A DNA stretch of 43,943 nt from a bacterium (GTDB lineage Bacteria > Patescibacteriota > Microgenomatia > UBA1400 > PJMF01). The notes beneath the pieces were generated by a model. That model did no database searches, was not told the origin of the DNA, and saw only the letters and a list, made by a program, of their open reading frames with translations. Every line of letters starts with the position of its first letter. Within the stretch, counting starts at the first letter, position 1. Made by a program: the position numbers and the translations under genes. This document shows positions 1,299-30,863 of the stretch, piece by piece. The DNA lies in assembly GCA_017431585.1 (NCBI GenBank), contig JAFRKU010000088.1, forward strand, positions 1 to 43,943, written 5' to 3'.

Positions 1299-1510
1299 GT
1301 TATAGGCTGTGCACGCTCGCCAGACGGGAAAATATTATAGGACTTTAGGTAAAGTCCTTATAAGTAATGAAATATTATAGGATGTTTACGTAAAGTCCTA
1401 TAATATTGAATTTTTAAATTATAGGCTATGGAGGTGATTGACCGATAAGGGCGACTTTTTATAGGATTTTCGGTTTTTATTTGGTTTTAGCCGACGATTA
1501 TGGGACTTTT
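1299..1510. repeat. Cluster of TTATAGGA-type repeats with two near-perfect hairpins
   Basis: Full 12-mer AATATTATAGGA at 1331..1342 (+), 1371..1382 (+) and 1396..1407 (-). Partial copies near 1299, 1356, 1417, 1459 and 1496. Palindromes: TTATAGGACTTTA-gg-TAAAGTCCTTATAA (1335..1363) and AATATTATAGGATGTTTAC/GTAAAGTCCTATAATATT (1371..1407). Confidence 0.7.
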
Positions 1511-2749: not shown

Positions 2750-4729
2750 ATGAACATTTTAGTACCGATGTCTTGGTTGGGCGAATATTTGCAGACTGAT
2801 CTGGCGCCGGCGGAAATTGCGCGCTGGGGCGCTTTGCATGGGCCGTCTTTTGAGCATATTCTCGAGCGCGAAGGCGAGGCGGTGTTTGACATTGAAATCA
2901 CCACTAATCGCGTGGATGCGATGTGTATCAAGGGACTGGCGCGGGAGTTGGCGGCGATTTTGGGCGACCAGGCGGCGGCGCCCCGTTTACACGAGACGGT
3001 GACGGTGGATTTGCCGGTACAAACCAAAAAAACATTGCCTGTGCCGGAAATAGTGGTGGAAACTGAGGTAGTAAATAAAATTATGTGCGTGGTGCTGGAT
3101 AAGGTAGCCAATGTTGCTTCGCCGGCACGGGTGCAAAAGCGTTTGCGCCAGATTGAGCAAAACACTCATGGCGTGATTATTGATATGACTAATTATATGA
3201 CACACGAGTTGGGTCATCCATGTCACGCTTTTGATTATGATAAAATCATGGCTTTAGGTGGTAAAATTGTGATCAAACAGGCTCAAGCAGGCAAAAAGTT
3301 TGTGACTTTGGACGGCAATGAATATACCACCGTGGGCGGCGAAGTGGTCTTTGAAAATGACAAAGGAGAAATCATTGATTTACCGGCAATAAAAGGCACA
3401 TTGAACACAGCAATTGATCAAAATACTCAACGGGTGTTGTTTTGGTTGGAAAACATGAGTGCGCCAGTGGTGCGCCAGGCGAGTATGAGTCACGCTATCA
3501 GGACGGTGGCGGCGATTTTAAATGAGAAAAATGTGGATCCGAATTTGGCAGCGGAAGTGCTAGTAGCGGGTTGCCAGATGCTGCAAAAAGAGGCGGGCGC
3601 GAAAATTGCTTCGCCTGTTTACACCTGGACCAATCCTCACTGGCAAGAACAGACGCAACCGGTGGATTTGCATTGGCAACGGTTGCGCGACTATCTAGGA
3701 GTGACGGTGGAGCGCGAGCGAGTGGAGCGGTATTTGACGGATCTGGGTTTCACACTGGTGAGGCAAAATGACCAGGTGATGAGCGTGCGTGTGCCGAGTT
3801 TCCGGCGACATGATGTGACAATCGAGCAAGATTTGATTGAAGAGGTGGCGCGGTTGTACGGTTATCATAATTTGCCGAGTCGGTTGGATTTCCCGGTGGT
3901 AGATTTGCCGGTGCAACCCAAATTCGATTTTGCCTTGGAAACGGCGTTTAAACACTTTTTGGTCGACAATGGTTTAAGCGAAGTGTATACATATTGGGCG
4001 GTAGGCCGTGAACTTTTGACCAATGACGAGCAGACGTATTTGCGGCTGGAAAATCCGCTGACTGATGACAAAGTGTATCTGCGACAGCAACTGCTACCCA
4101 GTTTACAAAAAGTTTATGTGGACAATCGACCAGATAAACGGGAAGTAGCGGGCATTTTTGAAATGGCCAATGTCTATTTTCCAGGCAAGACGACTGACAG
4201 CGTGGACGAAAGATGGCATCTGGCGCTGGTGACTACTCTCCCCTATCGCCAACTGCGCGCCCTGATAGAAAAAATGTTGCGTTTGGGCAATATTAGCGTG
4301 GATATCGATCAAAGTGGCGTCATTAGTGCGGGCCGGCAACATTTAGGCAGCATTCAGAGTCTGACGGAAGGTCTGCTGGGCGTGGAATTAGAGATGTCGG
4401 CGGTGCTGGCGGCCAAAAAACGACTGATAATTTCGGGGAATTTGGCAACGACGCCGATTGTGCACGAAGATATCACTTTTGTGATTGACAACGTGCCGAT
4501 TAGCGATGTGATCAAGCGAATGCAGCAGGTGTCGCCTTTAATTAAACGGGTGCAGTTGGGCGAGATTTATCGCGATCACTACACATTTCATTTGGAATTT
4601 CAAGATCCGGCTAAAAATTTAACGTCTAGCGAACTTTTGCCGGTGCGACAAGCGATAGTGGCGACTATGAACAAAATTGGAGCTAAATTAGTGGGGCAAT
4701 TGTCTGCTCCAGGCGGAATTGCCTCTTGA
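2750..4729 (+). CDS. pheT: Phenylalanine--tRNA ligase beta subunit (short form)
   Basis: 659 aa, with MNILVPMSWLGEYL... and FDIEITTNRVDAMCIKGLARELA motifs and a C-terminal HEDITFVID...LGEIYRD end, all typical of PheT. The N-terminal helix region runs directly into the I-E-I-T-x-NR-x-D motif. The OB-fold tRNA-binding insert of ~800-aa PheT therefore appears absent. GAGGAAAG lies upstream of the ATG. Confidence 0.9.
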   Translation: MNILVPMSWLGEYLQTDLAPAEIARWGALHGPSFEHILEREGEAVFDIEITTNRVDAMCIKGLARELAAILGDQAAAPRLHETVTVDLPVQTKKTLPVPEIVVETEVVNKIMCVVLDKVANVASPARVQKRLRQIEQNTHGVIIDMTNYMTHELGHPCHAFDYDKIMALGGKIVIKQAQAGKKFVTLDGNEYTTVGGEVVFENDKGEIIDLPAIKGTLNTAIDQNTQRVLFWLENMSAPVVRQASMSHAIRTVAAILNEKNVDPNLAAEVLVAGCQMLQKEAGAKIASPVYTWTNPHWQEQTQPVDLHWQRLRDYLGVTVERERVERYLTDLGFTLVRQNDQVMSVRVPSFRRHDVTIEQDLIEEVARLYGYHNLPSRLDFPVVDLPVQPKFDFALETAFKHFLVDNGLSEVYTYWAVGRELLTNDEQTYLRLENPLTDDKVYLRQQLLPSLQKVYVDNRPDKREVAGIFEMANVYFPGKTTDSVDERWHLALVTTLPYRQLRALIEKMLRLGNISVDIDQSGVISAGRQHLGSIQSLTEGLLGVELEMSAVLAAKKRLIISGNLATTPIVHEDITFVIDNVPISDVIKRMQQVSPLIKRVQLGEIYRDHYTFHLEFQDPAKNLTSSELLPVRQAIVATMNKIGAKLVGQLSAPGGIAS

Positions 4730-4754
4730 CAAATGTAACAATGTGTGGTATAAT
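4709..4754 (+). promoter_or_regulatory. Sigma-70-type promoter with conserved upstream module (copy A)
   Basis: CCAGGCGGAATTGCCTCTTGACAAATGTAACAATGTGTGGTATAAT. The -35 TTGACA is at 4726..4731, the spacer is 17 nt, and the -10 is at 4749..4754. The pheT stop codon TGA (4727..4729) lies inside the -35 hexamer. Confidence 0.65.
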
Positions 4755-4761
4755 ATAGGAT

Positions 4762-5172
4762 ATGCAAACGAATACGGAACAATTGAGAACATGGTCACCA
4801 GAGCAAACTGGTGAGTTGGTGACACCCGCTAGTGTGGAAACGGACGCGCCGGTGGCGCCGGAGGTAGCCTCTCTGGAGAGCGAAGCGACTTTTGATCAAG
4901 CGCCTGAAAGCGAGACGGTCGCGCCCACATTTGAGGCTACGACTGCGGCGACATCACCGGTGGCCACAGACAGCGAAATGGCCGAAGCGAATGAGCCGGT
5001 GCTATCTGCCGCCAACAAACGATTAGTTGACAATGATTTTATGCCGATTGCGGATGAACATCCGCTTAAAACGCGGCTGGATATCGCCATGTCGCCAGTG
5101 AGCAAGGCTTACGGCTGGAACAAGATGGCCAGTCGCTTGCAAAACCAACGCTTCGAGCGCGGTGTGGTCTAA
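4762..5172 (+). CDS. Hypothetical acidic low-complexity protein
   Basis: 136 aa, rich in E/T/A/P/S, with no recognisable motif. The ATG is 7 nt after TATAAT. It directly precedes the VirD4-like ATPase. Confidence 0.5.
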   Translation: MQTNTEQLRTWSPEQTGELVTPASVETDAPVAPEVASLESEATFDQAPESETVAPTFEATTAATSPVATDSEMAEANEPVLSAANKRLVDNDFMPIADEHPLKTRLDIAMSPVSKAYGWNKMASRLQNQRFERGVV

Positions 5173-5214: not shown

Positions 5215-7554
5215 ATGAATAATCTGTACACGATGGGGGAAGAGTTGCTGGCGATGATTATCCCGGCGGCGGTAAGCGTGGCGTGGATATTGGTGCTGGG
5301 GCTAGTGGGGTACGTGCTGTTTCATATCTGGATTAATCGCGATCGGGCGCGTCAGGCGGCCCAGACGGTGACGCTGCTGGTACGTTTGCCCAAAGACAAT
5401 GAGACCAAAATTGAAGCGGCTGAACAGATGTTTGATGCGATACACGCGCTGAAATTGACGACGTGGGAATCTTTGAGCCATCATGAGCCGAATTTTGCCA
5501 TTGAAATCGTGGCCCGCAAGGAAGATATTGCTTTTTATTTGAGCGTGCCGCAAGATTTGCGGGATTTGATTGAAAAAGATATTCACGCGGCGTATCCGAA
5601 TGCAGACATCGCTCCTGTGGTGGCGCCCAATATTTGGACATTGGGCAATCAAGTGGCTTTTACGCAGCTGAAACTTTTCGGCGGCGATCGTTGCCCGATT
5701 AAAACTTATCGGGAGTTGGCCAATGACGGCTTGCAGACGCTGACGAGTGCTTTGTCGAAAATGGGTGATGACGAGGGCGCGATCGTGCAATTTTTGATCC
5801 AGCCGACAGGCGAGCGGTTTCGGAATCAAAGTTTACGTCTGGTGCGACGCCAGCAAGAGCGCAGCAGTGATGCCAGCCAATCCTTTGAGGCCGACGGTCA
5901 CGAATTGCAAGCGATGGAAGAAAAAGTCAACAAATCGCTGTTTAAAACGGCTATTCGGGTGTGTGTGAGTGCCAAAACGCGGACAGTGGCGAATTCGCAT
6001 TTGAAAAACATTGTGGGCAGTTTTTCCCAATTTGACACGCCGCAAACTGGTTTGAGGGCGCGAGCGTGGATACCTTGGCCCCACTTTTTCCAAAAAAACT
6101 TTATTTATCGATACACTGCGTTTTTTGGTGATCATAATTTGCTGACTTTTAATTCGGAGGAGCTGGCTTCACTGATTCATTTCCCCAATCGCTCGGTGGA
6201 AACCCATCACATTCGCTTTTTGTATGCCAAAAATGCGCCGGCGCCGCGCGAGATTCCCACGACGGGTTTGTATCTGGGTAAATCGGTGTATCGGGGGGAT
6301 TCGCGGGAAATTTATATGGATTTGCCGGATAGACGGCGACATATGTACATCATTGGGAAAACTGGCACGGGTAAATCGGAATTTTTGAAAGAGATGATTT
6401 TGCAAGATATCGCCAATGGCTCGGGGGTGTGCGCGATTGACCCGCATGGCGAGTTTGTGGAAGATATTTTGCAGATGATTCCGGCGGAGCGGGCCGAGGA
6501 CGTGATTTACTTTAATCCTTCGGATTTAGAGCGGCCGCTGGGCATGAATATGATGGAAGCGGACACGGAGGAACAGCGGCATTTCGTGGTTAGTAGTGTG
6601 ATTGGTCTGATGTATAAGTTGTATGATCCGCATCACACGGGGATTATCGGGCCGCGGTTTGAGCACTCGATTCGCAACGCCATGCTGACGATCATGTATC
6701 GCAAAGGAGCCACGTTTATCGAGCTGGTGCGGTCGCTGACGGATGATAATTTTGTGCAAGAATTGTTGCCGTTTGTGGATGATCCGATGGTGAAACGTTA
6801 CTGGACCGATCAAATGGCGAAAACGTCTGATTTTCACAAGTCGGAAACGCTGGATTACATTGTGTCTAAGTTTGGGCGATTTGTGACGAATAAAACGATG
6901 CGCAATATCATTGGTCAGCCGGTGTCGGCGTTCAATTTCCGCCAGGCGATGGATCAAAAGAAAATCATTTTGTGCAATTTATCGAAGGGTATTTTGGGCG
7001 AGGAAGATGCCAAATTTTTGGGGCTTATTTTGGTGCCGAAAGTGTTGACGGCTGCCATGTCTCGTCAGGATGTACCAATGGAACAGCGCGAGGATTTTTT
7101 CTTGTATGTAGACGAGTTTCAAAATTATGCGACGGAAGATTTTGCCACGATTTTGTCGGAAGCGCGCAAGTATCGATTAAATCTAATCGTGGCCAATCAG
7201 TTTATTGCGCAGATTGAAGACGATGTGCGCAATGCCGTTTTTGGCAACGTGGGTACGATTGTCAGCTTCCGGGTGGGTGTCAATGACGCCCAATATTTGG
7301 AGCACGAATTTGCGCCGGTGTTTACCGAAACTGATTTGACTAATATCGAAAAGTTTCATGTCTACGTTAAAACTATTGTCAAAAACGAACCAGTGATGCC
7401 TTTTTCCATGTCGCTGTGGAAAGACATGTCTCAGGTGCAAGCACGGATGAATCCGGAGCTGGCCACGATGATTAAACAGTTGTCCAGACTGAAATACGGC
7501 AAAGACAAAGCGGAAGTGGAGGCCGAAATTGCGCAACGGGCGCGGTTGATTTAA
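5215..7554 (+). CDS. Membrane-anchored VirD4/TraG/TraD-like (DUF87/HerA-type) P-loop ATPase
   Basis: 779 aa. N-terminal TM helix IIPAAVSVAWILVLGLVGYVLF, Walker A GKTGTGKSEF, and Walker B/coupling-protein block FFLYVDEFQNYATEDFATILSEARKYRLNLIVANQFIAQI. TATAAT 5203..5208 lies 6 nt from the ATG. Confidence 0.75.
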   Translation: MNNLYTMGEELLAMIIPAAVSVAWILVLGLVGYVLFHIWINRDRARQAAQTVTLLVRLPKDNETKIEAAEQMFDAIHALKLTTWESLSHHEPNFAIEIVARKEDIAFYLSVPQDLRDLIEKDIHAAYPNADIAPVVAPNIWTLGNQVAFTQLKLFGGDRCPIKTYRELANDGLQTLTSALSKMGDDEGAIVQFLIQPTGERFRNQSLRLVRRQQERSSDASQSFEADGHELQAMEEKVNKSLFKTAIRVCVSAKTRTVANSHLKNIVGSFSQFDTPQTGLRARAWIPWPHFFQKNFIYRYTAFFGDHNLLTFNSEELASLIHFPNRSVETHHIRFLYAKNAPAPREIPTTGLYLGKSVYRGDSREIYMDLPDRRRHMYIIGKTGTGKSEFLKEMILQDIANGSGVCAIDPHGEFVEDILQMIPAERAEDVIYFNPSDLERPLGMNMMEADTEEQRHFVVSSVIGLMYKLYDPHHTGIIGPRFEHSIRNAMLTIMYRKGATFIELVRSLTDDNFVQELLPFVDDPMVKRYWTDQMAKTSDFHKSETLDYIVSKFGRFVTNKTMRNIIGQPVSAFNFRQAMDQKKIILCNLSKGILGEEDAKFLGLILVPKVLTAAMSRQDVPMEQREDFFLYVDEFQNYATEDFATILSEARKYRLNLIVANQFIAQIEDDVRNAVFGNVGTIVSFRVGVNDAQYLEHEFAPVFTETDLTNIEKFHVYVKTIVKNEPVMPFSMSLWKDMSQVQARMNPELATMIKQLSRLKYGKDKAEVEAEIAQRARLI

Positions 7555-7565
7555 ATATTATAGGA
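7554..7565 (+). repeat. AATATTATAGGA 12-mer copy abutting a stop codon
   Basis: TAAATATTATAGGA: the TAA stop of the ATPase gene overlaps the motif by one base. The same arrangement occurs at 10016..10029. Confidence 0.7.
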
Positions 7566-7576
7566 AAAAATGAGTC

Positions 7577-9619: not shown

Positions 9620-10018
9620 GTGAAAAATCGGACGGATACAGCCAACATAATTTTGGGTAGCGCGCTAGGTTTGTCGCTGCTGGGGGTGGTGGCGTGGCAA
9701 ATGAGTCAGCGGACGCAACAATTAATTGACGTCCGGGTGATGCAGGTGGCCGCCAGTGACGGCATGAGTGTGATTTTGCCTCAAGACAGCGTGAAATTTG
9801 ATGATAAGGGGCAGCCTTTCGTGTTGTTGCTGGATCAAAATCGGATGGCTCTACCCTATTTCGTGACGGCTAGCAGTTGGCGGCGCGATTTTTATCGAGT
9901 GGATGGCTTGCGGACCAATGATCTGGTGGTGCTGGATAATAAAGTCGCCGTCGGGCAAATGGTCAATTATAGTTTGATTAATCCAGAAGCTGGCCAAAGT
10001 GGGCTGGTGGAGCGGTAA
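9620..10018 (+). CDS. Hypothetical membrane-anchored protein
   Basis: 132 aa with a GTG start and one N-terminal TM helix (IILGSALGLSLLGVVAW). No recognisable domain. Confidence 0.45.
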   Translation: MKNRTDTANIILGSALGLSLLGVVAWQMSQRTQQLIDVRVMQVAASDGMSVILPQDSVKFDDKGQPFVLLLDQNRMALPYFVTASSWRRDFYRVDGLRTNDLVVLDNKVAVGQMVNYSLINPEAGQSGLVER

Positions 10019-10135
10019 ATATTATAGGATTTTAACCCATTTTGGCGAATTTTTTCCAGGCGAAAAAATGGCATTATGTCCTATAATATATTTTTATGAA
10101 AAGTTTTCCTCGAGTAAAGAAAAAATATTATAGGA
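10018..10135 (+). repeat. Left arm of a ~118-bp inverted repeat pair (composite of three 12-mer motifs)
   Basis: Contains AATATTATAGGA at 10018..10029 (+), 10079..10090 (-, 11/12) and 10124..10135 (+). The reverse complement of 13093..13211 matches it. The first 19 nt are identical, the last ~57 nt have 2 mismatches, and the central ~40 nt are diverged. Confidence 0.8.
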
Positions 10136-10146
10136 TATTTGCAGGG

Positions 10147-10223
10147 TGGTGGCCGCACTAGGATTCGAACCTAGGACCTCTCGAATGTGAATCGAACGCT
10201 CTAACCAACTGAGCCATGCGGCC
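10147..10223 (-). tRNA. tRNA-Val (anticodon CAC), CCA encoded
   Basis: Minus strand reads GGCCGCA-TG-GCTC-AGTTGGTTA-GAGC-G-TTCGA-TTCACAT-TCGAG-AGGTC-CTAGG-TTCGAAT-CCTAG-TGCGGCC-A-CCA. This is a full cloverleaf with a 7-nt anticodon loop carrying CAC. TGTGGTATAAT lies ~45 nt upstream on the minus strand (-10 at 10278..10273). Confidence 0.9.
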
Positions 10224-10269
10224 ATTTTGCTCTGATAAGAACCTACTTGATATGATATAATCAAGTTCT

Positions 10270-10983
10270 ATGATTATACCACAAAAAATGACTGCTCGAC
10301 TGAGCAAAATGGAGCAGTTTAATGACAGATTTTGGCATTTCTGGTTTCAACTAGAGACGGGCCAACAATTAGAACGTCTGGCGGGTCAATACGTATCGAT
10401 TTTGCTACCAGATGGGCAAAGACGGGCCTATTCTATGGCGGATGAGCCTAAGACGCAGCAATTTGAGCTGTTGATTGATATGCTCCCGGCGGGAGCAGGC
10501 GTGACCTATTTGCGTCAGCTGCAGCCTGGCGAGACGGTGGAAATTTTGGCGCCCTTGGGGCAATTGGTGGTCAAAGGCCGGGCGGCGCAAAATTATTTGC
10601 TGGCCAGCGGAAGCGGGATTTCGCCCTTGCGCTCGATTGTCCGTGATCAGCTGCTGACCCAAAAAAATACTGATGAATGGACTTTAATTTGGTCAATGTC
10701 TCATGAAAGCGACTTTTTTTGGCGGGATGAGTGGGCGCAATTGGCAGCAGGACACCAGAATTTTGACTATTATTTATTGGCTGATGACGCTACAGGTGAG
10801 GGTGGGATCCAAAAAATGTTCGTGCCGGAACAACTAGCGCTGCTCTCCCCGCCCGCCGAGAGCCATTTCTATCTGTGCGGTGGGCCGGTGATGATGGCAG
10901 CGTGTCAAAAATGGCTGACGGAGCATGGTTTCGGGCCGGAAATGGTGACGCTGGAGCACTTCCAAGTGCCCAAAAGAGGCTAA
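10270..10983 (+). CDS. Ferredoxin-reductase-type FAD/NAD(P)-binding oxidoreductase
   Basis: 237 aa. R-A-Y-S (FAD-binding RxYS), LLASGSGISPLRSIV (NAD(P)-binding GxGxxP) and C-terminal YLCGGPVMM are all typical of the FNR-like family. TGATATAAT ends 8 nt before the ATG. Confidence 0.7.
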   Translation: MIIPQKMTARLSKMEQFNDRFWHFWFQLETGQQLERLAGQYVSILLPDGQRRAYSMADEPKTQQFELLIDMLPAGAGVTYLRQLQPGETVEILAPLGQLVVKGRAAQNYLLASGSGISPLRSIVRDQLLTQKNTDEWTLIWSMSHESDFFWRDEWAQLAAGHQNFDYYLLADDATGEGGIQKMFVPEQLALLSPPAESHFYLCGGPVMMAACQKWLTEHGFGPEMVTLEHFQVPKRG

Positions 10984-11111
10984 AAATGGGGCAAAAATGG
11001 CCAAAAGCCGAAAAATACCCGAAACTTGTGTTAATTGCCCCTTGACAAATTGACAAAAATGTGGAAAATACGATATATCAGACGTATTTGATATAGAAAG
11101 GCTGATTAAAA

Positions 11112-11603
11112 ATGAAAAAGTACCTCCCATTTATTTTGCCCGCAGCGGCATTGGTTCTTGTGGTATATTTTGGCTGGCGATGGTATCGCTCGCGAAATGT
11201 GGAAAATTTGCCCGCACCAGAGGTGACGGCAGAAACTCCTATTGCCACTTTGCCGGCTGATGAGCGCACGGCTTTGGATAAAATTGCGCGAGGTTTGGGC
11301 AATTATCAGACTAGTCAGATGACGCCGAGTTTGAGCGAGGCGATGGGCGAGATTCGCTATGAAATTGTCGACGGCCGGGTGCGGTTTGCGGTGAATGCGA
11401 ATTTGCCTGTGGATGACGGCGAAGTTTACCGACTGTTTTACAAAACTGCTGGGAGCGATGATTTTCAAGAAGGTAGCACTTTGTCGGCCGGAAAAGGTGG
11501 TTTGATAGCTTCAAATGCCGTGTCTGTAGACGATTTGCCGCTGAGTGTCCAGGTTCGACTTTTGGACCAAGTGATTTTGGAAGGGCAAATTCAGGCAAAT
11601 TGA
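11112..11603 (+). CDS. Hypothetical membrane-anchored protein
   Basis: 163 aa with an N-terminal TM/signal anchor (LPFILPAAALVLVVYFGW). GAAAGG lies upstream of the ATG. A fourth copy of AATTGCC(C)CTTGACAAA (-35 at 11042..11047) lies upstream. Confidence 0.5.
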   Translation: MKKYLPFILPAAALVLVVYFGWRWYRSRNVENLPAPEVTAETPIATLPADERTALDKIARGLGNYQTSQMTPSLSEAMGEIRYEIVDGRVRFAVNANLPVDDGEVYRLFYKTAGSDDFQEGSTLSAGKGGLIASNAVSVDDLPLSVQVRLLDQVILEGQIQAN

Positions 11604-11606
11604 CCC

Positions 11607-11635
11607 TTGACAAGCCAAGGGACTTGGGGTAAACT
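11607..11635 (+). promoter_or_regulatory. Putative promoter for the 68-aa gene
   Basis: TTGACA 11607..11612, 17-nt spacer, TAAACT 11630..11635. The ~55-nt leader ends in GAAAGG 6 nt before ATG 11693. Confidence 0.4.
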
Positions 11636-11692
11636 CGAGGATAGTACAAAGTAGCCGGGGAAGCCAAGGCATACCGGACACGAAAGGTAACG

Positions 11693-11899
11693 ATGGCAGC
11701 ATTCAGTTACACTAACAAAAAGGGTCAGGAATATTTCCTGCACACTAAAGAGGTGACGCTCAAAAACGGTCGTAAACAACGCATCTATTTCTTCGCTCGT
11801 GAAGTTCGTGATGGCAGTTTGGAGCAAGTGCCAGCTGGTTACACAGTGGTGGAAACTGTGCGCACTGGTATGCCGGTTTTGAAACGCACCAACAAATAA
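11693..11899 (+). CDS. Small conserved-looking basic protein, unknown function
   Basis: 68 aa (MAAFSYTNKKGQEYFLHTKEVTLKNGRKQRIYFFAREV...). It has its own promoter, an SD-like GAAAGG and a strong terminator. Confidence 0.5.
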   Translation: MAAFSYTNKKGQEYFLHTKEVTLKNGRKQRIYFFAREVRDGSLEQVPAGYTVVETVRTGMPVLKRTNK

Positions 11900-11921
11900 T
11901 TGGTCAGTAAAAATAACCAAA

Positions 11922-11945
11922 CCCGCCTCATAGAGGCGGGTTTTT
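11922..11945. terminator. Hairpin terminator between convergent genes
   Basis: CCCGCCTC-ata-GAGGCGGG followed by TTTTT on the plus strand. The minus-strand side is followed by TTTGGTTATTTTT, so it may also serve pheS. Confidence 0.7.
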
Positions 11946-11977
11946 GTTGGTGTATAAATGTTTTTAAGAGTAATGGC

Positions 11978-13030
11978 CTAGAATTGTTGCAAAAATTCTA
12001 AGTTGCCGTTGTAAAAATTACGAATGTCGGGGACGTCAATATTGTCTTGCAAAGTGTAGGTCCGCTCTATACCCCAACCGAAAGCAAAGCCGGTATATTG
12101 GGTAGGATCGAGGCCGCAGGCTTGCAGTACATGGGGATGAACCATCCCCGCACCGCCTACTTCGTGCCAACCGCTTTTGCAAAATTTGCATTTGTCGCCA
12201 TTGTCCGTCTGGCCAGTACCGTGGCAGAAGTGGCACGAAAAATCGATTTCAAAACTCGGCTCGGTGAACTGAAAATGGAAGGGGCGAATGCGCGAGCGAC
12301 TGTCTGGGCCGTAAAACTCGCGGGCGAAATAGTCGAGTACGCCTTTCAGATGCGTAATATTGACGTCTTTGTCCACCATGAGCCCTTCGAATTGATGAAA
12401 CATTTGGGTGTGGGTGACGTCTTGCTGACGGCGGTAGGTGCGGGCGATATTGATCATGCGAATCGGCGGTTTTCCCAGGCGCAACATTTCGTGCACTTGA
12501 CCATTGGATGTGTGAGGAGTCATGACCCAGCGAATGTGCTGGTGACCGGGTGTCCCGGGGTGGTGGACAAAAAATGTCTCCCACTCGTCGCGTGCCGGAT
12601 GACCGGGGGCCATGTTGAGGCGGCCAAAGACGTTTTCGTCGTCGTCGAGTTCCGGATGACGCACCCGAATAAAACCTAAGCGACCGAAAATATCGGTGAT
12701 TTGCTCGATCATCTGACTGACAGGGTGTAAATGGCCCACGGGGGTATCGGCGGCCGGTAGGGTGAAATCCAGGGCGGGCGTGGGGGGCGCAGTGACGGTG
12801 GCCACATTTTTTTGGGCAGCGATGGCTTCGAGACGACTTTTGAGGTCGTTGAGCGCTTGGCCGGCGGCTTTTTTGTCGTTGACGGCGCGAATATCGGCGC
12901 TAATCTGCTTGAATAACCCCTTTTTACCTAAATATTTAGTTGACCAATCGGCACTATTGTCGGCCTGGGCTTGGGCTGCCAGCTGCTGGAGGCGGTTGGC
13001 AAATTCAGTCAGCGAGATGGTTTGTGACAT
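11978..13030 (-). CDS. pheS: Phenylalanine--tRNA ligase alpha subunit
   Basis: Class II core motifs (FRPGHPARDEWETFF-like HPARDEWETFF, RTYRRQ.D.THTQMFHQFEGL, GFAFGWGIERT) and a CxxC...CxxC knuckle as in many PheS. Start moved from the track TTG (13054) to ATG 13030 (MSQTISL...), which lies 9 nt after TGGTATAAT (-10 at 13045..13040). Confidence 0.9.
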   Translation of the reverse strand: MSQTISLTEFANRLQQLAAQAQADNSADWSTKYLGKKGLFKQISADIRAVNDKKAAGQALNDLKSRLEAIAAQKNVATVTAPPTPALDFTLPAADTPVGHLHPVSQMIEQITDIFGRLGFIRVRHPELDDDENVFGRLNMAPGHPARDEWETFFVHHPGTPGHQHIRWVMTPHTSNGQVHEMLRLGKPPIRMINIARTYRRQQDVTHTQMFHQFEGLMVDKDVNITHLKGVLDYFAREFYGPDSRSRIRPFHFQFTEPSFEIDFSCHFCHGTGQTDNGDKCKFCKSGWHEVGGAGMVHPHVLQACGLDPTQYTGFAFGWGIERTYTLQDNIDVPDIRNFYNGNLEFLQQF

Positions 13031-13092
13031 ATGGAGGCTATTATACCATATCAAGCCGGCGGAAGCACGAGGAAAAGGGGCGCAAAATTATA

Positions 13093-13211
13093 TCCTATAA
13101 TATTTTTTCTTTACTCGAGGAAAATTTTTTATAAAAATATATTATAGGATTAATAACCGAAACTTTGCCTGGATAAAAAAGGCGAAAATTGAGTTAAAAT
13201 CCTATAATATT
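13093..13211 (-). repeat. Right arm of the ~118-bp inverted repeat pair
   Basis: Reverse complement of the 10018..10135 block. 12-mer copies at 13093..13104 (-), 13138..13149 (+, 11/12) and 13200..13211 (-). Confidence 0.8.
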
Positions 13212-13242
13212 TAGGACACAGCGACCACTTCTCTGCTCACTC

Positions 13243-13271
13243 TTGACAAAAGTGGCACTTTTTGGTATAAT
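13243..13271 (+). promoter_or_regulatory. Sigma-70-type promoter
   Basis: TTGACA 13243..13248, 17-nt spacer, TGGTATAAT (-10 at 13266..13271). The ~50-nt leader ends in GGAGGTG about 9 nt before GTG 13325. Confidence 0.6.
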
Positions 13272-13324: not shown

Positions 13325-14074
13325 GTGTGTAAGAGGTTGGATGCGTGGTTGGAGGCCTGTCAGTGCCTCAACCCACAGCGGGTCAGTGAGTTGCTGACTA
13401 GCGGCGAAGAGCTACACTTGACCACGATTAATTTTCTGCAGGTGCACGATGAAGTGCTCCTGTTGGGGTTAGCCCGCGGTTGCGACTTGGCGAAAAATTT
13501 CGCTGCTAAGGCAGTGATCGCTGGGTATAAGAGCGCTTTTGCGGCCAACAAAAAGCCGATGATGGTGTCGCACAATAAACGCGTGCGAGCCTGGGGCGAC
13601 AAGTTGGCAGCACTGGCGCGGATCGTCGCGGTGCCCGTCCATTATAGTTTTTCCATCTGTACCATGGTGGAAAAATGGCTGGATGCGCGAGAGCAAACTT
13701 TTGCCGGGCATTTTATTGCCCGGACGGATGCAGGCTTTTGCCACGGAGACTGGGAACAGCAACTTCGGGCGGAACAGGGCAAACTGTTGCAGGCTTTCGC
13801 CAAGCGCGGTTTGCAGACGGAAAGCTTGGAGCTGGTGGATCACTTCGTGCTTAATGGTTATGCCAACTGGCAGCATCAGACGCATGAAGTGGTGGATAGC
13901 CTGGTGGAGCGGGCACTGGGGGACTTACAAACGGCGGACCAAAAGGTGATTTTAGTCGATGTTCAGGGAGTTTTTTCTGACAGGCGGCTGGCTCGGCAAG
14001 TGCGACGCTTGGGGGTACCGGTGATCGGTTTGGTGGATTTGCCGGCGCCAACGGGCGCAGTGAGCTATTTTTGA
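13325..14074 (+). CDS. Hypothetical protein
   Basis: 249 aa with a GTG start behind a strong GGAGG, its own promoter and its own terminator. No family recognised. Confidence 0.5.
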   Translation: MCKRLDAWLEACQCLNPQRVSELLTSGEELHLTTINFLQVHDEVLLLGLARGCDLAKNFAAKAVIAGYKSAFAANKKPMMVSHNKRVRAWGDKLAALARIVAVPVHYSFSICTMVEKWLDAREQTFAGHFIARTDAGFCHGDWEQQLRAEQGKLLQAFAKRGLQTESLELVDHFVLNGYANWQHQTHEVVDSLVERALGDLQTADQKVILVDVQGVFSDRRLARQVRRLGVPVIGLVDLPAPTGAVSYF

Positions 14075-26397: not shown

Positions 26398-27213
26398 ATG
26401 AGCGAGAAACTACCAGTTAGCGTGATCATTATTGCCCGGAATGAAGCGGCGAATTTGCGGCGGTTGCTGCCGCAGTTGGTTTGGGCGAGCGAAGTGATAG
26501 TGGCAGCTAATGACTGCCAAGACGAGACGGTGGCGGTGGCGGAGGAAAACGGAGCGCGGGTGGAAACCATCGAGACAACTGATTTTGCGGCGCTGCGGAC
26601 ACGGGCGATGGATTGGGCGAGCCAGCCGTGGCTGTTTTATGTGGACGCCGACGAGCGGGTGACACCGGCTTTGCAGGCGGAAATCGCGGGGCTGGTGACG
26701 CAAGCTGGCAGTCGGGTGACGGCGGGGCGATTGCGCCGGCTTAATTTCCACTACGGAGCGCCGATGCGCTACGGTGGCTGGCAAAATGACTACGTGACGC
26801 GTATTTTTCGGCGCGATAGTTTGCAAGGTTGGCAGGGAGAAATCCACGAAAGCCCGGTTTTTGAGGGTGAGGTGAAAACGCTGCTGTCGCCTTTGTGGCA
26901 TTTGACTCATCGGTGCACGGCGGATAATTTGCGCAAGAGTGCTGATTGGACAATTAAGGAAGCGCGTTTGCTAGCGGCTAGTCCCATCGCACCGGTGACA
27001 GCGGTGACAATTGCGCGCAAAATGAGCATGGAATTTTTCCGCCGCTATATGCGCGATGGTGGCTGGCGCGACGGGATGGCGGGTTTTGTGGAAAGTCTGG
27101 TGCAAGCGATGAATCGGGGTTTGGTGTATATCCAAGTGTGGGAATTGCAACAGCAGCCCACACTGGCCGGTAAATATGAGCTACTGGAAAAAGAAGTGCA
27201 AAATCAGGTATAA
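26398..27213 (+). CDS. Family-2 glycosyltransferase
   Basis: 271 aa: VSVIIIARNEAANLRRLLPQL...WLFYVDADERV (DxD). ATG lies 6 nt after TATAAT 26386..26391. Confidence 0.8.
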   Translation: MSEKLPVSVIIIARNEAANLRRLLPQLVWASEVIVAANDCQDETVAVAEENGARVETIETTDFAALRTRAMDWASQPWLFYVDADERVTPALQAEIAGLVTQAGSRVTAGRLRRLNFHYGAPMRYGGWQNDYVTRIFRRDSLQGWQGEIHESPVFEGEVKTLLSPLWHLTHRCTADNLRKSADWTIKEARLLAASPIAPVTAVTIARKMSMEFFRRYMRDGGWRDGMAGFVESLVQAMNRGLVYIQVWELQQQPTLAGKYELLEKEVQNQV

Positions 27214-27221
27214 TTTGAGTT

Positions 27222-28328
27222 ATGCGAATTGTATTTTACTCACCATATTTACCTAAACATTTCGGTGGCGGCGAAAAATATTTGTTTGATACGGCGCTGG
27301 TGTACGCGCAAAAACATCGCGTGGATATTGCTTTGCCGGCGGATTGCGATCAAAAAGATGTGGACAAAATTAAAAAAGCTTATCAAAAACATTTGGGCGT
27401 GGATTTAAAGGCGCTGAATTTCGTCATTTCACCATTCGGAGCAGCGAAAAAAAAGTGGCAACGGTTGCTGTGGACCATGCGCTACGACGTGGTGTATTTT
27501 GTGACGGACGGGAGTGCGTTTTATTCGCTGGCGCGGCGCAACATTATGCATATTCAGGTGCCACTGCTTTTGGGGCGAAAAAGTGGTTGGGAGCGAGTGA
27601 AGTTTAAGCGGTTTAAAGTGATTAACGCCAACTCGAATTTTACCAAAAAAACCGTGGAAAAATATTGGGATATCAAGGTAAATATGGTGTGCCAACCTGG
27701 GGTGGAGGTTGGCGAGTTTCAGTTGCCGCCGGCGGCTACCAAAGAAAAAATTATTTTAAACGTGGGCCGGTTTTTTGACAGTTTGCATACCAAAAATCAG
27801 GATTCGCTGGTGGAATTTTGGCGCGAGTTGTGCCAAAAGCATCCGGAAGAGACGAAAGATTGGAAATTGGTACTGGTAGGCAAGGTGGAAAGCGAAGAGT
27901 ATGCGGCGCGGGTGGCGCAATTGGCGGCCGGGGCGAGCGTGGAAATATATCACGAAGTGTCGCACGAACAATTGGTGGAGTGGTACCGGCGAGCGGCGAT
28001 TTATTGGCATGCGACCGGCTGGCGCGATCAAGAATGGGAACATCCGGAACGAATGGAACATTTTGGGATTTCTACGGTGGAAGCGATGGCGGCCGGAGCG
28101 GTGCCGATTGTAGTGGCCAAAGGCGGACAAAAAGAAATTTTGGGCCAGAAGTTGCGAGAGTGTGCGTGGGAAAACAAAGCTGAATGTTTGCGCTTGACAC
28201 TGCAAGTGATGAAAAATGAAAAATTGCGTCAGCAATGGAGTGAGTTGGCCAGCAAACGCGCGGCTAATTACGACATGAAACAGTTTGCGAAACGGTGTTG
28301 GCAAATGTTGGAAAGTAAAAGAATATGA
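27222..28328 (+). CDS. GT-B glycosyltransferase (family 4 / group 1)
   Basis: 368 aa. The C-terminal EHFGISTVEAMAAGAVPIVVAKGGQKEIL matches the E-x7-E region. The upstream stop TAA is embedded in a TATAAT (27209..27214) that lies 7 nt from this ATG. Confidence 0.8.
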   Translation: MRIVFYSPYLPKHFGGGEKYLFDTALVYAQKHRVDIALPADCDQKDVDKIKKAYQKHLGVDLKALNFVISPFGAAKKKWQRLLWTMRYDVVYFVTDGSAFYSLARRNIMHIQVPLLLGRKSGWERVKFKRFKVINANSNFTKKTVEKYWDIKVNMVCQPGVEVGEFQLPPAATKEKIILNVGRFFDSLHTKNQDSLVEFWRELCQKHPEETKDWKLVLVGKVESEEYAARVAQLAAGASVEIYHEVSHEQLVEWYRRAAIYWHATGWRDQEWEHPERMEHFGISTVEAMAAGAVPIVVAKGGQKEILGQKLRECAWENKAECLRLTLQVMKNEKLRQQWSELASKRAANYDMKQFAKRCWQMLESKRI

Positions 28329-30862
28329 CAACACCCATTAGCGTGGTGATTCCGGATTACAAAGGTCTGAATTTATTGCAGGCCAATTTGCCGACGGTGG
28401 TGGCGGAGTTGGTGGATGGTGATGAAATAATTATCAGCGAAGACGCGGCTGACGAGCGCAGGACACGAGAAGATTTTGTCTCCCGGTATCAGTTGCAACC
28501 GGTGGTGCGCCAGCAAGTGCCGGGGCAGGTGTGGCAAAAGTGGGTGACAATGGCGGGCAAAAAAATTCACTTAGTGTTTTTGCAGCGGGCGCAAAATGGG
28601 CGGTTTGCCCGCAATGTCAATGATGCGGTCAAGTTGGTCAACAATCGTTTCTTTTTGCTGCTAAATAACGATGTTCAGCTGCAAAAAGGCGTGCGCGAGC
28701 AGTTGTTAGGCGAGTTGGCGGACGAAAAAGTGTTTGCGGTGACGGCTCGGGAAATCGATGTCCACGATGGTCATCGGGAGTCGGGGCGCAATAAATTGTG
28801 GTGGCGGGCGGGCCGTTTTTGGCACAGCCGCGATGAAGATGTGCACAGCAGTGGCGAAACGGCGTGGGCTTGCGGGGGCAGTAGTATGTACCGGACGGCC
28901 TACTGGCGCGAGCTGGGCGGCTTTGACACGCGCTATTATCCGGCTTACTGGGAAGACATCGACGTGTCGTGGCAGGCGCGAGCGCGCGGCTACAAAGTTT
29001 TGTATAAGCACACCGCGGTGGTTAATCATGTCCACGAAACTACCAACGCGACGGTGTTTGGCCGAGAGCGAATGATAGCGATGAGTTGGCAGGCGGGGAC
29101 AAAATTTGCTTGGAAAAATAGCAACTGGTGGCAGAAGTGTCAATTTATACTGATGTATCCGTATTGGTTGCTGAAGCAATATCCACAATTGTGGTGGTGG
29201 GTGGGGGTGGTAGCGGTGTGCGCGCTGACGCGGTTGGCGGTGATTAATACGCCGCACGGCTTGACGGTGGACGAGGCGGCCATCGGCTACAATGCTTATG
29301 GTATTTGGACGCAAAGGCGCGACGAATGGGCCAATAAATTGCCAGTGTCGTTTCGCTCTTACGGTGACTTTAAAGCGCCGCTGGCGATTTATGCGACCGC
29401 ACCGTGGGTGGGTATGCTGGGCATGCGGGTGTGGAGTGTGCGCTTGAGTTTTGTTTTGGCTGGTATCATGAGCGTGTGGGGACTGATGAAACTGGTGGAC
29501 GAATTGTTGTCTCGTGTCAAGCCCAATCATCAAACGTGGGCGGCGGCGGCCGGTTTTTTGATGACGGTGTCGCCGTGGCATTATCATTTTTCACATTTGG
29601 GCTTTGAAAACAATTGGGCGCTGGTCGGTGTGCTGTGGGGCATGTATGGTTGGCTGAAATTTGTGCACGCGCGCACCAACTGGCGCGGCAAACTTTTGAG
29701 TGAGACGTGGTGGAGCGCGCCGCTTTTGGGCAGCGGAGTGGCGCTGGTGGCGGCACTGTATAGTTATCATGCGGCCAAAGTGGTAGTGCCTTTGTTTGTG
29801 CTGGTGGCGCTGATCGGTTACTGGCCGGTGTGGCGAGCGCGGTGGCGAAGTTTGGCGGTGGCGCTGATGGTGGCGGTGGTGCTGGCGTGGCCTTTGCTGG
29901 CGGATAGCATTTGGGGCGAAGGTTTCACTCGGGCGGGTAGCTCGTTTATGTTTGATGCCCAAGTGCCATGGTCGCAAAAGGCGACGATGCTGGTGAGCAG
30001 TTATACGGCGCACTGGCAGCCGGCCTATTTATGGGCGGGGCAATTGTACGAAGCGCAAACGACGACGGGTCAATGGTTGGCGAATGTCCGCCACGGCGAC
30101 GGGGCGCACGGGATTCTAACGCTCGCGGAGACAAGCTTGATACTATTATTAATAGCCAGCGTGACACGTTTTGGTGAAGTGCGCCGTGATGCTGGCGAAG
30201 CAATAGCGTGGGGCGCGGCGTGGTGGCTGCTGGGCGTAGTACCGGCGGCGCTGACGACGCAAGTGCCACATAGTAACCAAAGTTTTTTGGCGGTGCCGGG
30301 AGTGATAATTTTGGCGGTGACCGGTTGGGCGACATGGCGAGCGTGGTGGCGGAGGCAAAATTTAAAATTTTATCCCGGAGTGATGGTGTTGGTGGCGGTA
30401 TTGATTAGTTTGGGCTTTATGCAACGAGTGAGCGCTTACAAAATGGTGTTTGGCAGCGCCAAACAGATAGCTGCTGTGAGTTCACAGCCAGATGTGGCGA
30501 CTGATGTGGCACGGCAGACGGCCAGCGATTATTTTTTCGCTACGGATTTGTTGGATGCTGTGCGCGAGAGTGAAAAAATTGAGCATCGGGGGACGTCAAT
30601 CGTGCTGTCGACTCATTTTGAGCAAGAATATATTTATGTGTTGATTGCGCGGCACATCAAACCACTGGAGCGATATTTGGCCAATGAATTTTTGCAAGTC
30701 AGTCAGTTGGAAGAAAAATATTTTTTGGATAAAAAGCGTATTTTGATTTACACGCCGGATAAATTAATCAATCGCGATTGGAAGCAACATTGTGCGCGTA
30801 CTACGGTGTGGATCGATGGCGCGGGCCGGCCGAAAATAACGCTGTGCGTGACGAAAGAGTAA
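28325..30862 (+). CDS. Fusion protein: family-2 glycosyltransferase + GT-C (ArnT/PMT family-39-like) membrane glycosyltransferase
   Basis: 845 aa. The N-terminal ~270 aa read ISVVIPDYKG...LLLNNDVQL...YPAYWEDIDVSWQARARGYKV (GT2). The rest is polytopic, with the first-loop motif LTVDEAAIGYNAYGIW...YGDFKAPLAIY. The ATGA overlap with the previous gene indicates coupling. Confidence 0.8.
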   Translation: MTTPISVVIPDYKGLNLLQANLPTVVAELVDGDEIIISEDAADERRTREDFVSRYQLQPVVRQQVPGQVWQKWVTMAGKKIHLVFLQRAQNGRFARNVNDAVKLVNNRFFLLLNNDVQLQKGVREQLLGELADEKVFAVTAREIDVHDGHRESGRNKLWWRAGRFWHSRDEDVHSSGETAWACGGSSMYRTAYWRELGGFDTRYYPAYWEDIDVSWQARARGYKVLYKHTAVVNHVHETTNATVFGRERMIAMSWQAGTKFAWKNSNWWQKCQFILMYPYWLLKQYPQLWWWVGVVAVCALTRLAVINTPHGLTVDEAAIGYNAYGIWTQRRDEWANKLPVSFRSYGDFKAPLAIYATAPWVGMLGMRVWSVRLSFVLAGIMSVWGLMKLVDELLSRVKPNHQTWAAAAGFLMTVSPWHYHFSHLGFENNWALVGVLWGMYGWLKFVHARTNWRGKLLSETWWSAPLLGSGVALVAALYSYHAAKVVVPLFVLVALIGYWPVWRARWRSLAVALMVAVVLAWPLLADSIWGEGFTRAGSSFMFDAQVPWSQKATMLVSSYTAHWQPAYLWAGQLYEAQTTTGQWLANVRHGDGAHGILTLAETSLILLLIASVTRFGEVRRDAGEAIAWGAAWWLLGVVPAALTTQVPHSNQSFLAVPGVIILAVTGWATWRAWWRRQNLKFYPGVMVLVAVLISLGFMQRVSAYKMVFGSAKQIAAVSSQPDVATDVARQTASDYFFATDLLDAVRESEKIEHRGTSIVLSTHFEQEYIYVLIARHIKPLERYLANEFLQVSQLEEKYFLDKKRILIYTPDKLINRDWKQHCARTTVWIDGAGRPKITLCVTKE
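28699..28712 (+). repeat. GCAGTTGTTAGGCG 14-mer, exact copy 1
   Basis: gcgcgaGCAGTTGTTAGGCGagttgg. Reads Q-L-L-G in frame within the GT2 domain. Confidence 0.9.
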
Positions 30863-30863
30863 G

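What the first reader, a model, noticed from the sequence alone, without database searches (positions are those of the whole stretch)
10018..13211. ~118-bp inverted repeats bracket a 3-kb segment carrying tRNA-Val and pheS
The block 10018..10135 and the reverse complement of 13093..13211 align end to end. The first 19 nt are identical, the last ~57 nt differ at 2 positions, and the middle is diverged.

Between them lie tRNA-Val(CAC), an FNR-like oxidoreductase, two small proteins and pheS. pheS is on the opposite strand to pheT and ~7 kb away from it, whereas pheS and pheT are normally adjacent and co-transcribed. The repeats are long enough to mediate inversion by homologous recombination, so this may record or permit a chromosomal flip. 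No recombinase or transposase is present in the window.
Basis: seen in the sequence. Interest (0 to 1): 0.6.

Follow-up and report, generated by a model that had tools for sequence, protein, structure and literature searches.

The report
Dispersed palindromic repeat pair, not a switch
The two inverted 125-base blocks are real, but they are two copies of a small hairpin repeat family scattered between genes in a few gut Patescibacteria. The 3-kb piece between them shows no sign of having flipped, so this is an ordinary repeat family rather than a DNA switch.

Summary
Blocks 10016-10140 (+) and 13088-13213 (-) align end to end. The outer 21 nt are identical, the inner 60 nt are 97% identical, and the middle is about 56% identical.

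Each block has three ATATTATAGGA(T) words in +,-,+ order, which form two hairpins. One hairpin centre carries TTCCAGGC and the other CTCGAG.

Nine full copies of this ~120-nt element exist in the DNA I could search: two in the window, two in MAG JAZQJV and five in goat-gut MAG JAFRKQ. All nine lie between genes, at mostly non-orthologous sites. No other searched genome or metagenome has it.

The flip reading is not borne out, for five reasons:
- The pheS/pheT split is shared by nine relatives, and none of the eight that are not contig-truncated has the element near pheS.
- GC skew at four-fold sites inside the segment (+0.39) matches the flanks (+0.45, +0.52). This rejects an inverted origin (p=1e-46).
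- Every promoter stays with its own gene, so a flip would change no expression.
- The window encodes no recombinase.
- An independent assembly of a 99.3%-identical strain has the same left junction.

Copies do sit at synteny breakpoints, so a past role in rearrangement stays possible.

My verdict is a lineage-specific MITE/BIME-like repeat of low interest.

The parts
10016..10140 (+). IRL, the left copy of the ~120-nt element. It contains word M1 (10019-10030), the hairpin-1 interior with TTCCAGGC (10054-10061), the inverted word M2' (10078-10089), a T-run ATTTTTAT, the hairpin-2 interior with CTCGAG (10109-10114), and word M3 (10125-10136). Its first three bases are the TAA stop codon of ORF 9620-10018.
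   Evidence: nhmmer E=4e-28. An independent ENA contig, L160, spans it collinearly.
13088..13213 (-). IRR, the right copy, in inverted orientation. On the plus strand, CTCGAG is at 13114-13119 and GCCTGGAT at 13167-13174. The 12-mers are at 13092-13103, 13139-13150 and 13199-13210.
   Evidence: nhmmer E=1.5e-22.
10147..10223 (-). tRNA-Val(cac). Its 3' end lies 6 nt from IRL. The divergent pairing of tRNA-Val with the FNR gene is conserved in relatives L001 and L002, which have no element at this spot.
10270..10983 (+). FNR-type FAD/NAD oxidoreductase gene. Together with tRNA-Val and the next two ORFs it forms a block conserved in L001, L002 and L003.
11112..11603 (+). 163-aa protein with no Pfam match and an N-terminal hydrophobic stretch. 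It is conserved in the relatives at 44-52% identity.
11693..11899 (+). 68-aa protein with no Pfam match. It is 82-88% identical in the relatives.
11919..11943 (.). GC-rich bidirectional intrinsic terminator shared by the convergent 68-aa ORF and pheS.
   Evidence: 11-bp stem, 7 GC pairs, T-runs on both strands.
11978..13030 (-). pheS. It has its own extended -10 promoter (TGGTATAAT) 9 nt upstream of the ATG, inside the bracketed segment, so the transcript is probably leaderless.
   Evidence: Four-fold GC skew is +0.45 on the plus strand.
9620..10018 (+). 132-aa ORF that ends the conserved pheT-to-mdh gene block. In JAZQJV (L094) and JAFRKQ (L100) the element also follows this gene, within 6-7 nt of the stop codon, but in the opposite orientation.
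13243..13271 (+). Perfect sigma-70-type promoter (TTGACA-17-TATAAT, with TG) for ORF 13325-14074. It lies outside the bracketed segment, 30 nt beyond IRR.
2750..4729 (+). pheT, 7.2 kb from pheS and on the opposite strand.
1327..1470 (.). Degenerate cluster of the same 12-mer. It forms short hairpins without the TTCCAGGC centre and lies in the gene-free gap upstream of rnpA.
   Evidence: weak nhmmer hit, E=0.71.
7552..7566 (+). Single copy of the word, TAAATATTATAGGAA. It bridges the stop codon of the VirD4-like gene and the ribosome-binding site and start of the epimerase gene.

Best explanation
The two blocks are two copies of a lineage-specific, non-coding, ~120-bp intergenic repeat of the MITE/BIME type. 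The element has three ATATTATAGGA(T) words in alternating orientation, joined by two conserved linkers. One linker carries TTCCAGGC; the other carries GTCTGGAG or CTCGAG.

Such elements spread or are copied between intergenic spacers, by transposition in trans or by recombination and gene conversion. That mechanism is inferred, not shown. The pair around tRNA-Val...pheS is two family members that happen to lie 3 kb apart in inverted orientation, and their inner hairpin has recently been homogenised.

The bracketed segment is fixed in its present orientation. It is not an invertible switch, and it is not the event that separated pheS from pheT. That split is much older. As dispersed homologous sequences, copies of the family may have served as breakpoints for older rearrangements. 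This too is inference, from their position at synteny breaks.
For: **It is a family.**
- There are nine full-length copies with the same architecture. Two are in the window, two in JAZQJV (L094, L110) and five in JAFRKQ (L088 = L002:19878-19999, L100, L128, L134, L151).
- nhmmer scores range from E=1e-21 to 1e-30, and 1.88 Mb of held loci yield no further copy.
- Pattern scans of 185,579 species genomes find the element in no other genome. A scan of the JGI metagenomes finds none either.
- Loose ends of metagenome contigs show further copies with other flanks in the source habitat.

**Copies behave like dispersed DNA.**
- All nine are intergenic.
- The neighbouring genes are functionally unrelated: pyruvate kinase, RecQ, PilC, prepilin peptidase, mannose-6-P isomerase, a Wzy-like protein and NusB.
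- Presence varies at orthologous sites. The site after pilC is filled in JAZQJV and empty in the window. The tRNA-Val flank is filled in the window and empty in L001 and L002.
- The CTCGAG subtype is shared by the window and JAFRKQ L151.

**It is non-coding and shows no conserved RNA structure.** Rfam gives no hit. The hairpin interiors do not fold better than shuffled versions in a consistent way.

**The orientation is fixed.**
- Pooled four-fold GC skew is +0.39 in the segment against +0.45 and +0.52 in the flanks. This rejects inverted and zero-skew models at p=1e-46 and 1e-9.
- ENA contig L160, from another sample and 99.26% identical, runs collinearly from the 132-aa ORF through all of IRL into tRNA-Val.
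- No strand-changing joints appear in 7 runs.

**There is no switch logic.** A bidirectional terminator sits between the 68-aa ORF and pheS, and every gene has its own promoter on its own side of the repeats. The window encodes no recombinase.

**The pheS/pheT split is ancient**.
Against: - I found no target-site duplication.
- Copy number is low: at least 2, 2 and 5 per genome.
- The two outermost words are direct repeats, not inverted, which is unlike a classic MITE.
- The linker motifs TTCCAGGC and GTCTGGAG are conserved across species.
- Seven of nine copies share one orientation relative to the downstream promoter.
- One site, after the 132-aa ORF, is occupied in all three species.

The last three points fit a selected function at least as well as selfish spread.

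The reads could not test orientation directly. No Logan contig spans the 60-bp core, and the right junction was never crossed by an independent contig.
Confidence: 0.7

Rival explanations
1. The element is a selected cis-acting module, not selfish DNA. It would be a binding platform for a DNA-binding protein, with three 12-mer sites and two TCCAGRC sites. It sits at operon borders just upstream of promoters and would act as an insulator, an unconventional terminator or an operator. The inverted pair is then simply two operon borders.
For: - Sequence is conserved in the words and in the hairpin centres, while the stems are not conserved as structure.
- Seven of nine copies point hairpin 2, then hairpin 1, then the downstream gene. 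A separate extended -10 promoter lies 30-90 nt beyond the element.
- The site after the 132-aa ORF is occupied in all three species.
- In the IRL orientation, hairpin 1 is followed by ATTTTTAT directly after a stop codon.
- Hairpin 2 of the window copies and of JAFRKQ L151 is about 85% identical, although the neighbouring proteins have diverged strongly.
Against: - The downstream genes form no functional group.
- The site is empty at orthologous borders in sister species.
- The orientation after the 132-aa ORF is reversed between the window and both relatives.
- Proven-looking terminators in this genome are GC-rich hairpins, as at 11919-11943. The scan does not call the element a terminator.
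- No candidate binding protein is known.
Confidence: 0.2
2. IRL and IRR recombine by RecA-dependent homologous recombination and invert the 3-kb tRNA-Val...pheS segment. This would happen either reversibly in the population or once recently, and it would account for pheS lying opposite to pheT.
For: - The copies are inverted, 3 kb apart, and share a 35-bp exact core (60 bp at 97%).
- The inner hairpin is 33/35 identical while the rest has diverged, which implies recent exchange between the two copies.
- Relatives place the YibE/F block on the tRNA-Val side of the segment rather than the pheS side.
Against: - Four-fold GC skew in the segment equals that of the flanks.
- The pheS/pheT split is shared by L001-L009; none of the eight loci with flanks intact has the repeats near pheS.
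- An IRL x IRR flip does not reproduce any relative's gene order, because pheS is separately inverted relative to the FNR block.
- An independent 99.3%-identical strain has the same left junction.
- There is no recombinase, and a flip would have no regulatory consequence.
- 35 bp is near the lower limit for RecA-dependent exchange. This rests on established knowledge for E. coli, about 23-27 bp, and was not tested here.
Confidence: 0.06
3. This is an assembly artefact. The MAG contig would have been joined or oriented wrongly through the shared repeat core, so the bracketed segment does not really lie here or in this orientation.
For: - Coverage in the public runs is low, at depth 2-6.
- Independent assemblies break their contigs at the elements.
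Against: - Contig L160, from another sample and assembler run, crosses the whole of IRL into tRNA-Val, collinear with the window.
- The hairpin-1 interiors are copy-specific, and the shared exact core is only 35 bp, shorter than a read.
- The segment's GC skew fits the assembled orientation.
Confidence: 0.03

Closest known systems
Bacterial interspersed mosaic elements (BIMEs) built from REP units, and REPINs (E. coli, Pseudomonas; PMC2817692, PMC3116915, PMC3337134)
   Same: - Short, non-coding and strictly intergenic.
- A short word recurs in alternating orientation, separated by conserved linkers, so the element folds into hairpins.
- Copies are dispersed at operon borders.
- The family is lineage-specific.
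   Different: - The 12-mer is not itself a palindrome and lacks the GTAG/CGTC tag of REPs (PMC3733652).
- Copy number is a handful per genome, not hundreds.
- No RAYT gene was seen, though this could not be searched genome-wide.
- The element is AT-rich rather than GC-rich.
Bacterial MITEs such as Neisseria Correia elements, RUP, ERIC and Nezha (reviews PMC10969869, PMC3184786)
   Same: - Size of about 120 bp, with no ORF.
- Inverted 11-13-nt terminal-type words.
- Multiple dispersed intergenic copies.
- Presence or absence varies between related genomes.
- Subfamilies are shared between species.
   Different: - No target-site duplication was found.
- The two outermost words are in direct orientation, because there are three words rather than two.
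- No parent IS with matching ends is known.
Invertible DNA switches (Hin/Gin, fimS, Bacteroides invertons) and rearrangements between inverted IS or rRNA copies
   Same: Inverted repeats bracket a DNA segment.
   Different: - There is no recombinase.
- No promoter or gene part is uncoupled by inversion.
- The segment's composition shows a long-fixed orientation.
- The repeats belong to a dispersed family.

Membership tests
Site-specific invertible switch (inverton) | Inverted repeats flank the segment | tested here: met
Site-specific invertible switch (inverton) | An invertase or tyrosine recombinase is encoded in or next to the segment | tested here: not met
   Pfam finds no recombinase in any scanned window ORF of 80 aa or more; 26398-35987 was not scanned. 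The rest of the genome could not be searched.
Site-specific invertible switch (inverton) | Inversion couples or uncouples a promoter or a gene part across the repeat | tested here: not met
   pheS, tRNA-Val and the FNR gene have promoters inside the segment. ORF 13325 has its own perfect promoter outside it, and the 132-aa ORF ends before IRL.
Site-specific invertible switch (inverton) | Both orientations are present in sequencing reads | tested here: inconclusive
   There are no joints in 7 runs, but only low-depth Logan contigs were available and none spans the 60-bp core. One independent contig shows the same left junction.
Homologous-recombination inversion between inverted repeats | Uninterrupted identity above the minimal processing segment | tested here: met
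   The longest exact run is 35 bp, which is marginal.
Homologous-recombination inversion between inverted repeats | A compositional (GC-skew) discontinuity in the inverted segment | tested here: not met
   The segment is at +0.39 against +0.45 and +0.52 in the flanks.
Homologous-recombination inversion between inverted repeats | Relatives or strains differ by exactly this inversion | tested here: not met
MITE | Small, non-coding, in multiple dispersed copies | tested here: met
   Nine full copies in three genomes, all intergenic.
MITE | Terminal inverted repeats | tested here: inconclusive
   Words 1 and 2, and words 2 and 3, are inverted pairs of 11-13 nt. The two outermost words are direct repeats.
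MITE | Target-site duplication | tested here: not met
   The flanks of the nine copies share no duplicated bases.
MITE | A parent IS or transposase with matching ends | not testable with these tools
None was seen in the held loci.
REP/BIME/REPIN-RAYT | Units in alternating orientation with conserved linkers | tested here: met
REP/BIME/REPIN-RAYT | The unit is an imperfect palindrome with a GTAG or CGTC tag | tested here: not met
   The 12-mer ATATTATAGGAT is neither self-complementary nor tagged. The criterion comes from PMC3733652.
REP/BIME/REPIN-RAYT | A RAYT gene flanked by the units | not testable with these tools
Rho-independent terminator | A GC-rich stem followed by a T-run | tested here: not met
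   The scan does not call the element. A true example lies at 11919-11943. Hairpin 1 is AT-rich, with ATTTTTAT after it in one orientation only.

The most novel reading that the evidence does not exclude
The element may be an undescribed functional or mobile module of a small clade of gut Patescibacteria. It would be a three-word, two-linker DNA platform read by a dedicated protein. That protein could be a regulator or nucleoid protein, or an unknown transposase that places the element at gene ends in either orientation, as seen after the 132-aa ORF in three species. Copies of the element would then be the preferred breakpoints that reshuffled gene order in these tiny genomes, including around pheS.
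Probability: 0.12. Interest if true: 0.5.

Novelty: new member of a known kind. Interest (0 to 1): 0.22.

Why it matters
The main value is as a correction. A striking inverted pair around an essential gene is not a phase-variation switch, and the pheS/pheT split is an old lineage trait.

Two smaller points follow:
- It adds one more small palindromic repeat family to the reduced genomes of Patescibacteria. Copies lie at the points where gene order differs between sister species, so the family is a usable marker, and a possible agent, of rearrangement in that clade.
- The case shows that four-fold-site GC skew gives a read-free test of whether a repeat-bracketed segment has flipped, and of whether a MAG has assembled it in the right orientation.

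Tried and rejected

**Searches that found nothing.**
- The exact 35-nt core in 185,579 species genomes: 0 hits. The window's own genome is not among them.
- The three-word pattern in JGI metagenomes: 14 hits, none of this family.
- Phage and plasmid collections: no match.
- Rfam at gathering and at relaxed thresholds: only the tRNA plus noise.
- RNA runs: none.

**Ideas that failed.**
- A structured RNA. RNAalifold keeps only the 12-mer stem and finds essentially no covariation. The hairpin interiors do not consistently beat shuffles.
- Loop-loop pairing between CCAGGC and GYCTGG. It is broken in both window copies.
- The element as the promoter of the downstream gene. A separate canonical promoter lies beyond it in every case.
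- A regulon. The downstream genes are unrelated.

**Look-alikes.** The same 11-mer palindrome ends many repeats in Clostridia MAGs, but the interiors are unrelated, so I treat these as a different family.

**Limits of the data.**
- Exact-protein look-ups for the FNR protein and for pheS (two start codons tried) found nothing.
- Contigs carrying ORF 13325 stop inside IRR, so the right junction has no independent confirmation.
- The window's ORF 13325 has no homologue upstream of YibE/F in JAFRKQ.

Full report
**1. The observation**

The two blocks are real. Window 10016-10140 and the reverse complement of 13088-13213 align over about 125 columns with one indel. Identity is uneven:
- The outer 21 nt are identical.
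- The inner 60 nt differ at two positions (pair I1).
- The roughly 43 columns in between are only about 56% identical.
- The longest uninterrupted identities are 35, 21 and 19 bp.

Within the window the 60-nt arm scores E=3e-25.

pheT lies 7.2 kb away on the plus strand. Pfam finds no recombinase or transposase domain in any ORF of 80 aa or more that I scanned; the seven glycosylation-operon ORFs at 26398-35987 were not scanned.

**2. Anatomy of the repeat**

Each block is built from three copies of the word ATATTATAGGA(T) in +,-,+ order. Words 1 and 2 close a 71-nt hairpin, and words 2 and 3 close a 63-nt hairpin.
- Hairpin 1 carries TTCCAGGC at its centre and is followed by ATTTTTAT.
- Hairpin 2 carries CTCGAG.

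The word occurs 11 times in the window against 0.12 expected. Besides the two blocks, there is a degenerate cluster at 1327-1470 and single copies at 4750 and 7555.

**3. It is a family**

Pattern scans of one genome per species (185,579 species) and an nhmmer profile find nine full-length copies with the same layout:
- two in the window;
- two in the Patescibacteria MAG JAZQJV (L094, L110);
- five in the goat-jejunum MAG JAFRKQ/RGIG2556 (L088 = L002:19878-19999, L100, L128, L134, L151).

By PheS identity (75-77%), these two genomes are the window's closest species representatives, together with CAYQLH (L003, 77%), in whose single 5.9-kb contig no element was found.

No other genome has the element. 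The JGI metagenome scan finds none, and the phage and plasmid collections have none. Loose ends of metagenome contigs from the source habitat show more copies with other flanks.

Conserved across species:
- the three words;
- TTCCAGGC;
- ATATT(T/A)TT after word 2;
- (A)GTCTGGA(G) in hairpin 2.

The window copies and JAFRKQ L151 carry CTCGAG instead of GTCTGGAG, so a subtype is shared between species.

The hairpin interiors are otherwise variable and do not fold better than shuffles in a consistent way. RNAalifold finds essentially no covariation, and Rfam has no match. The look-alike hits in Clostridia MAGs share only the 11-mer ends and have unrelated interiors.

**4. Context of the copies**

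All nine copies are intergenic. Seven point the same way: hairpin 2, then hairpin 1, then the start of a downstream gene. In each of those seven, a separate extended -10 promoter lies 30-90 nt beyond the element. For IRR this is the perfect promoter at 13243-13271. IRL and L151 lie between convergent genes.

The neighbouring genes are unrelated in function.

Occupancy differs between species:
- The site after pilC is filled in JAZQJV and empty in the window.
- The 3' flank of tRNA-Val is filled in the window and empty in L001 and L002.
- One site is filled in all three species, directly after the 132-aa ORF that ends the conserved pheT-VirD4-epimerase-mdh block. There the element is in the opposite orientation in the window, and JAFRKQ has an extra truncated inverted copy beside it.

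Beyond that shared site, the relatives continue with a small basic protein, NusB, an ACP-like protein and RNase III. The window continues with tRNA-Val.

**5. Did the segment flip?**

(a) Composition. The window has a very strong replication-type GC skew that is independent of gene strand. At four-fold sites, in plus-strand terms, it is +0.39 for plus-strand genes and +0.57 for minus-strand genes. Pooled over the four genes between the repeats it is +0.39 (169 G to 74 C), against +0.45 and +0.52 in the flanks. This rejects the value expected after an inversion (p=1e-46) and the zero value expected for frequent flipping (p=1e-9). It is compatible with the flanks (p=0.09). The same result argues that the assembled orientation is correct.

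(b) Relatives. Distant Patescibacteria (L010 onward) have pheS-pheT-...-PBP1. All nine closest relatives, L001-L009, have pheS without pheT. The split is therefore old. No L001-L009 locus has an element within 8 kb of pheS (L002's only copy lies about 8.8 kb downstream); L001's contig ends 447 bp beyond pheS, so one flank there is unseen.
- The block tRNA-Val/FNR/163-aa/68-aa is conserved.
- pheS is convergent with that block in the window and in the more distant L008. It is co-oriented in L001-L003.
- In JAFRKQ the YibE/F-ispD-dnaJ-LytR_C block lies on the tRNA-Val side.
- No single IRL x IRR flip converts one order into another.
- In the relatives, too, the genes carry the skew of their present strand.

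(c) Independent assemblies. ENA contig L160, from another sample and 99.26% identical over 3.9 kb, runs from the VirD4-like gene through the 132-aa ORF and the whole of IRL into tRNA-Val. Other contigs of the species stop inside or before the elements. Seven public runs show no strand-changing joints, but they are low-depth Logan contigs and none spans the 60-bp core. I count this as no test.

(d) Logic. pheS and the 68-aa ORF share a GC-rich bidirectional terminator (11919-11943). Every gene keeps its promoter on its own side of the repeats. A flip would therefore switch nothing.

**6. Reading**

The best-supported account is that IRL and IRR are two members of a small, lineage-specific, non-coding palindromic repeat family of the MITE/BIME kind, and that the segment between them is fixed.

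The near-identity of hairpin 2 between the two window copies is 33/35. The two JAZQJV copies share about 60%. This points to recent copying or gene conversion between neighbours. Since then there has been no net inversion, because that divergence is far smaller than what is needed to rebuild the skew.

How the family spreads is not shown.

The main rival is a selected cis-acting role. It is supported by three observations: the conserved linker motifs, the orientation bias, and the occupancy of one site in all three species.

Copies lie at all three places where the window's gene order departs from its relatives: the gap before rnpA, IRL and IRR. A past role as recombination breakpoints is therefore plausible but unproven.

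**7. Comparison, novelty and score**

In geometry the element is closest to BIMEs and REPINs, which have alternating units and conserved linkers (PMC2817692, PMC3116915). In behaviour it is closest to bacterial MITEs (PMC10969869, PMC3184786). It fails defining features of each:
- no GTAG/CGTC-tagged palindromic unit (PMC3733652);
- no target-site duplication;
- direct outer ends.

It also fails the defining features of an invertible switch.

I found no description of this family. Earlier notes of this scan report other, different ~120-nt palindromic repeats in Patescibacteria, so the kind is not new.

Interest is low. The striking inverted pair has an ordinary explanation. What remains open is what reads the 12-mer.

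Noticed in passing
L001:11060-11230 (JAZQJV, just after pheS, near the contig end): Five copies of GTGTGGCAT within about 170 nt of non-coding DNA. This looks like an iteron or DnaA-box-like array and may be a replication origin or plasmid-type site. The window has no such cluster.
   Followed up: partly
L082-L126 (Clostridia MAGs, for example CAZUKR and CAQUBD): Many copies per genome of a 58-69-nt palindrome, ATATTATAGGAAAG...CTTTCCTATAATAT. It is usually followed by a conserved GC-rich stretch (AAAACGCTCCGCG..GGATGCAC...). It shares the 11-mer ends with the Patescibacteria element but has an unrelated interior. It appears to be a separate repeat family with a -10-like end.
   Followed up: no
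window, whole length: Four-fold-site GC skew is unusually strong, +0.4 to +0.8 in plus-strand terms, and independent of coding strand. T-versus-A skew instead follows the coding strand. There is no skew reversal anywhere in the 44 kb.
   Followed up: partly
window 11693-11899: A 68-aa protein with no Pfam match is 82-88% identical in relatives, while its neighbours are only 38-52% identical. It always lies just upstream of, or convergent with, pheS. It is a strongly constrained small protein of unknown function.
   Followed up: no
window 13028-13055 (minus strand): pheS has the extended -10 box TGGTATAAT only 9 nt before its ATG, so the transcript is probably leaderless. ORF 4762 shows the same layout (TATAAT, 7 nt, ATG at 4746-4764).
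   Followed up: no
window 7552-7566: A single copy of the word (TAAATATTATAGGAA) supplies both the stop codon of the VirD4-like gene and the AGGA ribosome-binding site of the epimerase gene. In JAZQJV these two genes overlap, with no spacer.
   Followed up: partly
L004-L080 record titles: Many TPA MAGs titled 'uncultured Pseudomonadales' or 'Gammaproteobacteria' carry Patescibacteria-type pheS-pheT-PBP1 loci. These titles appear to be taxonomic mislabels.
   Followed up: no
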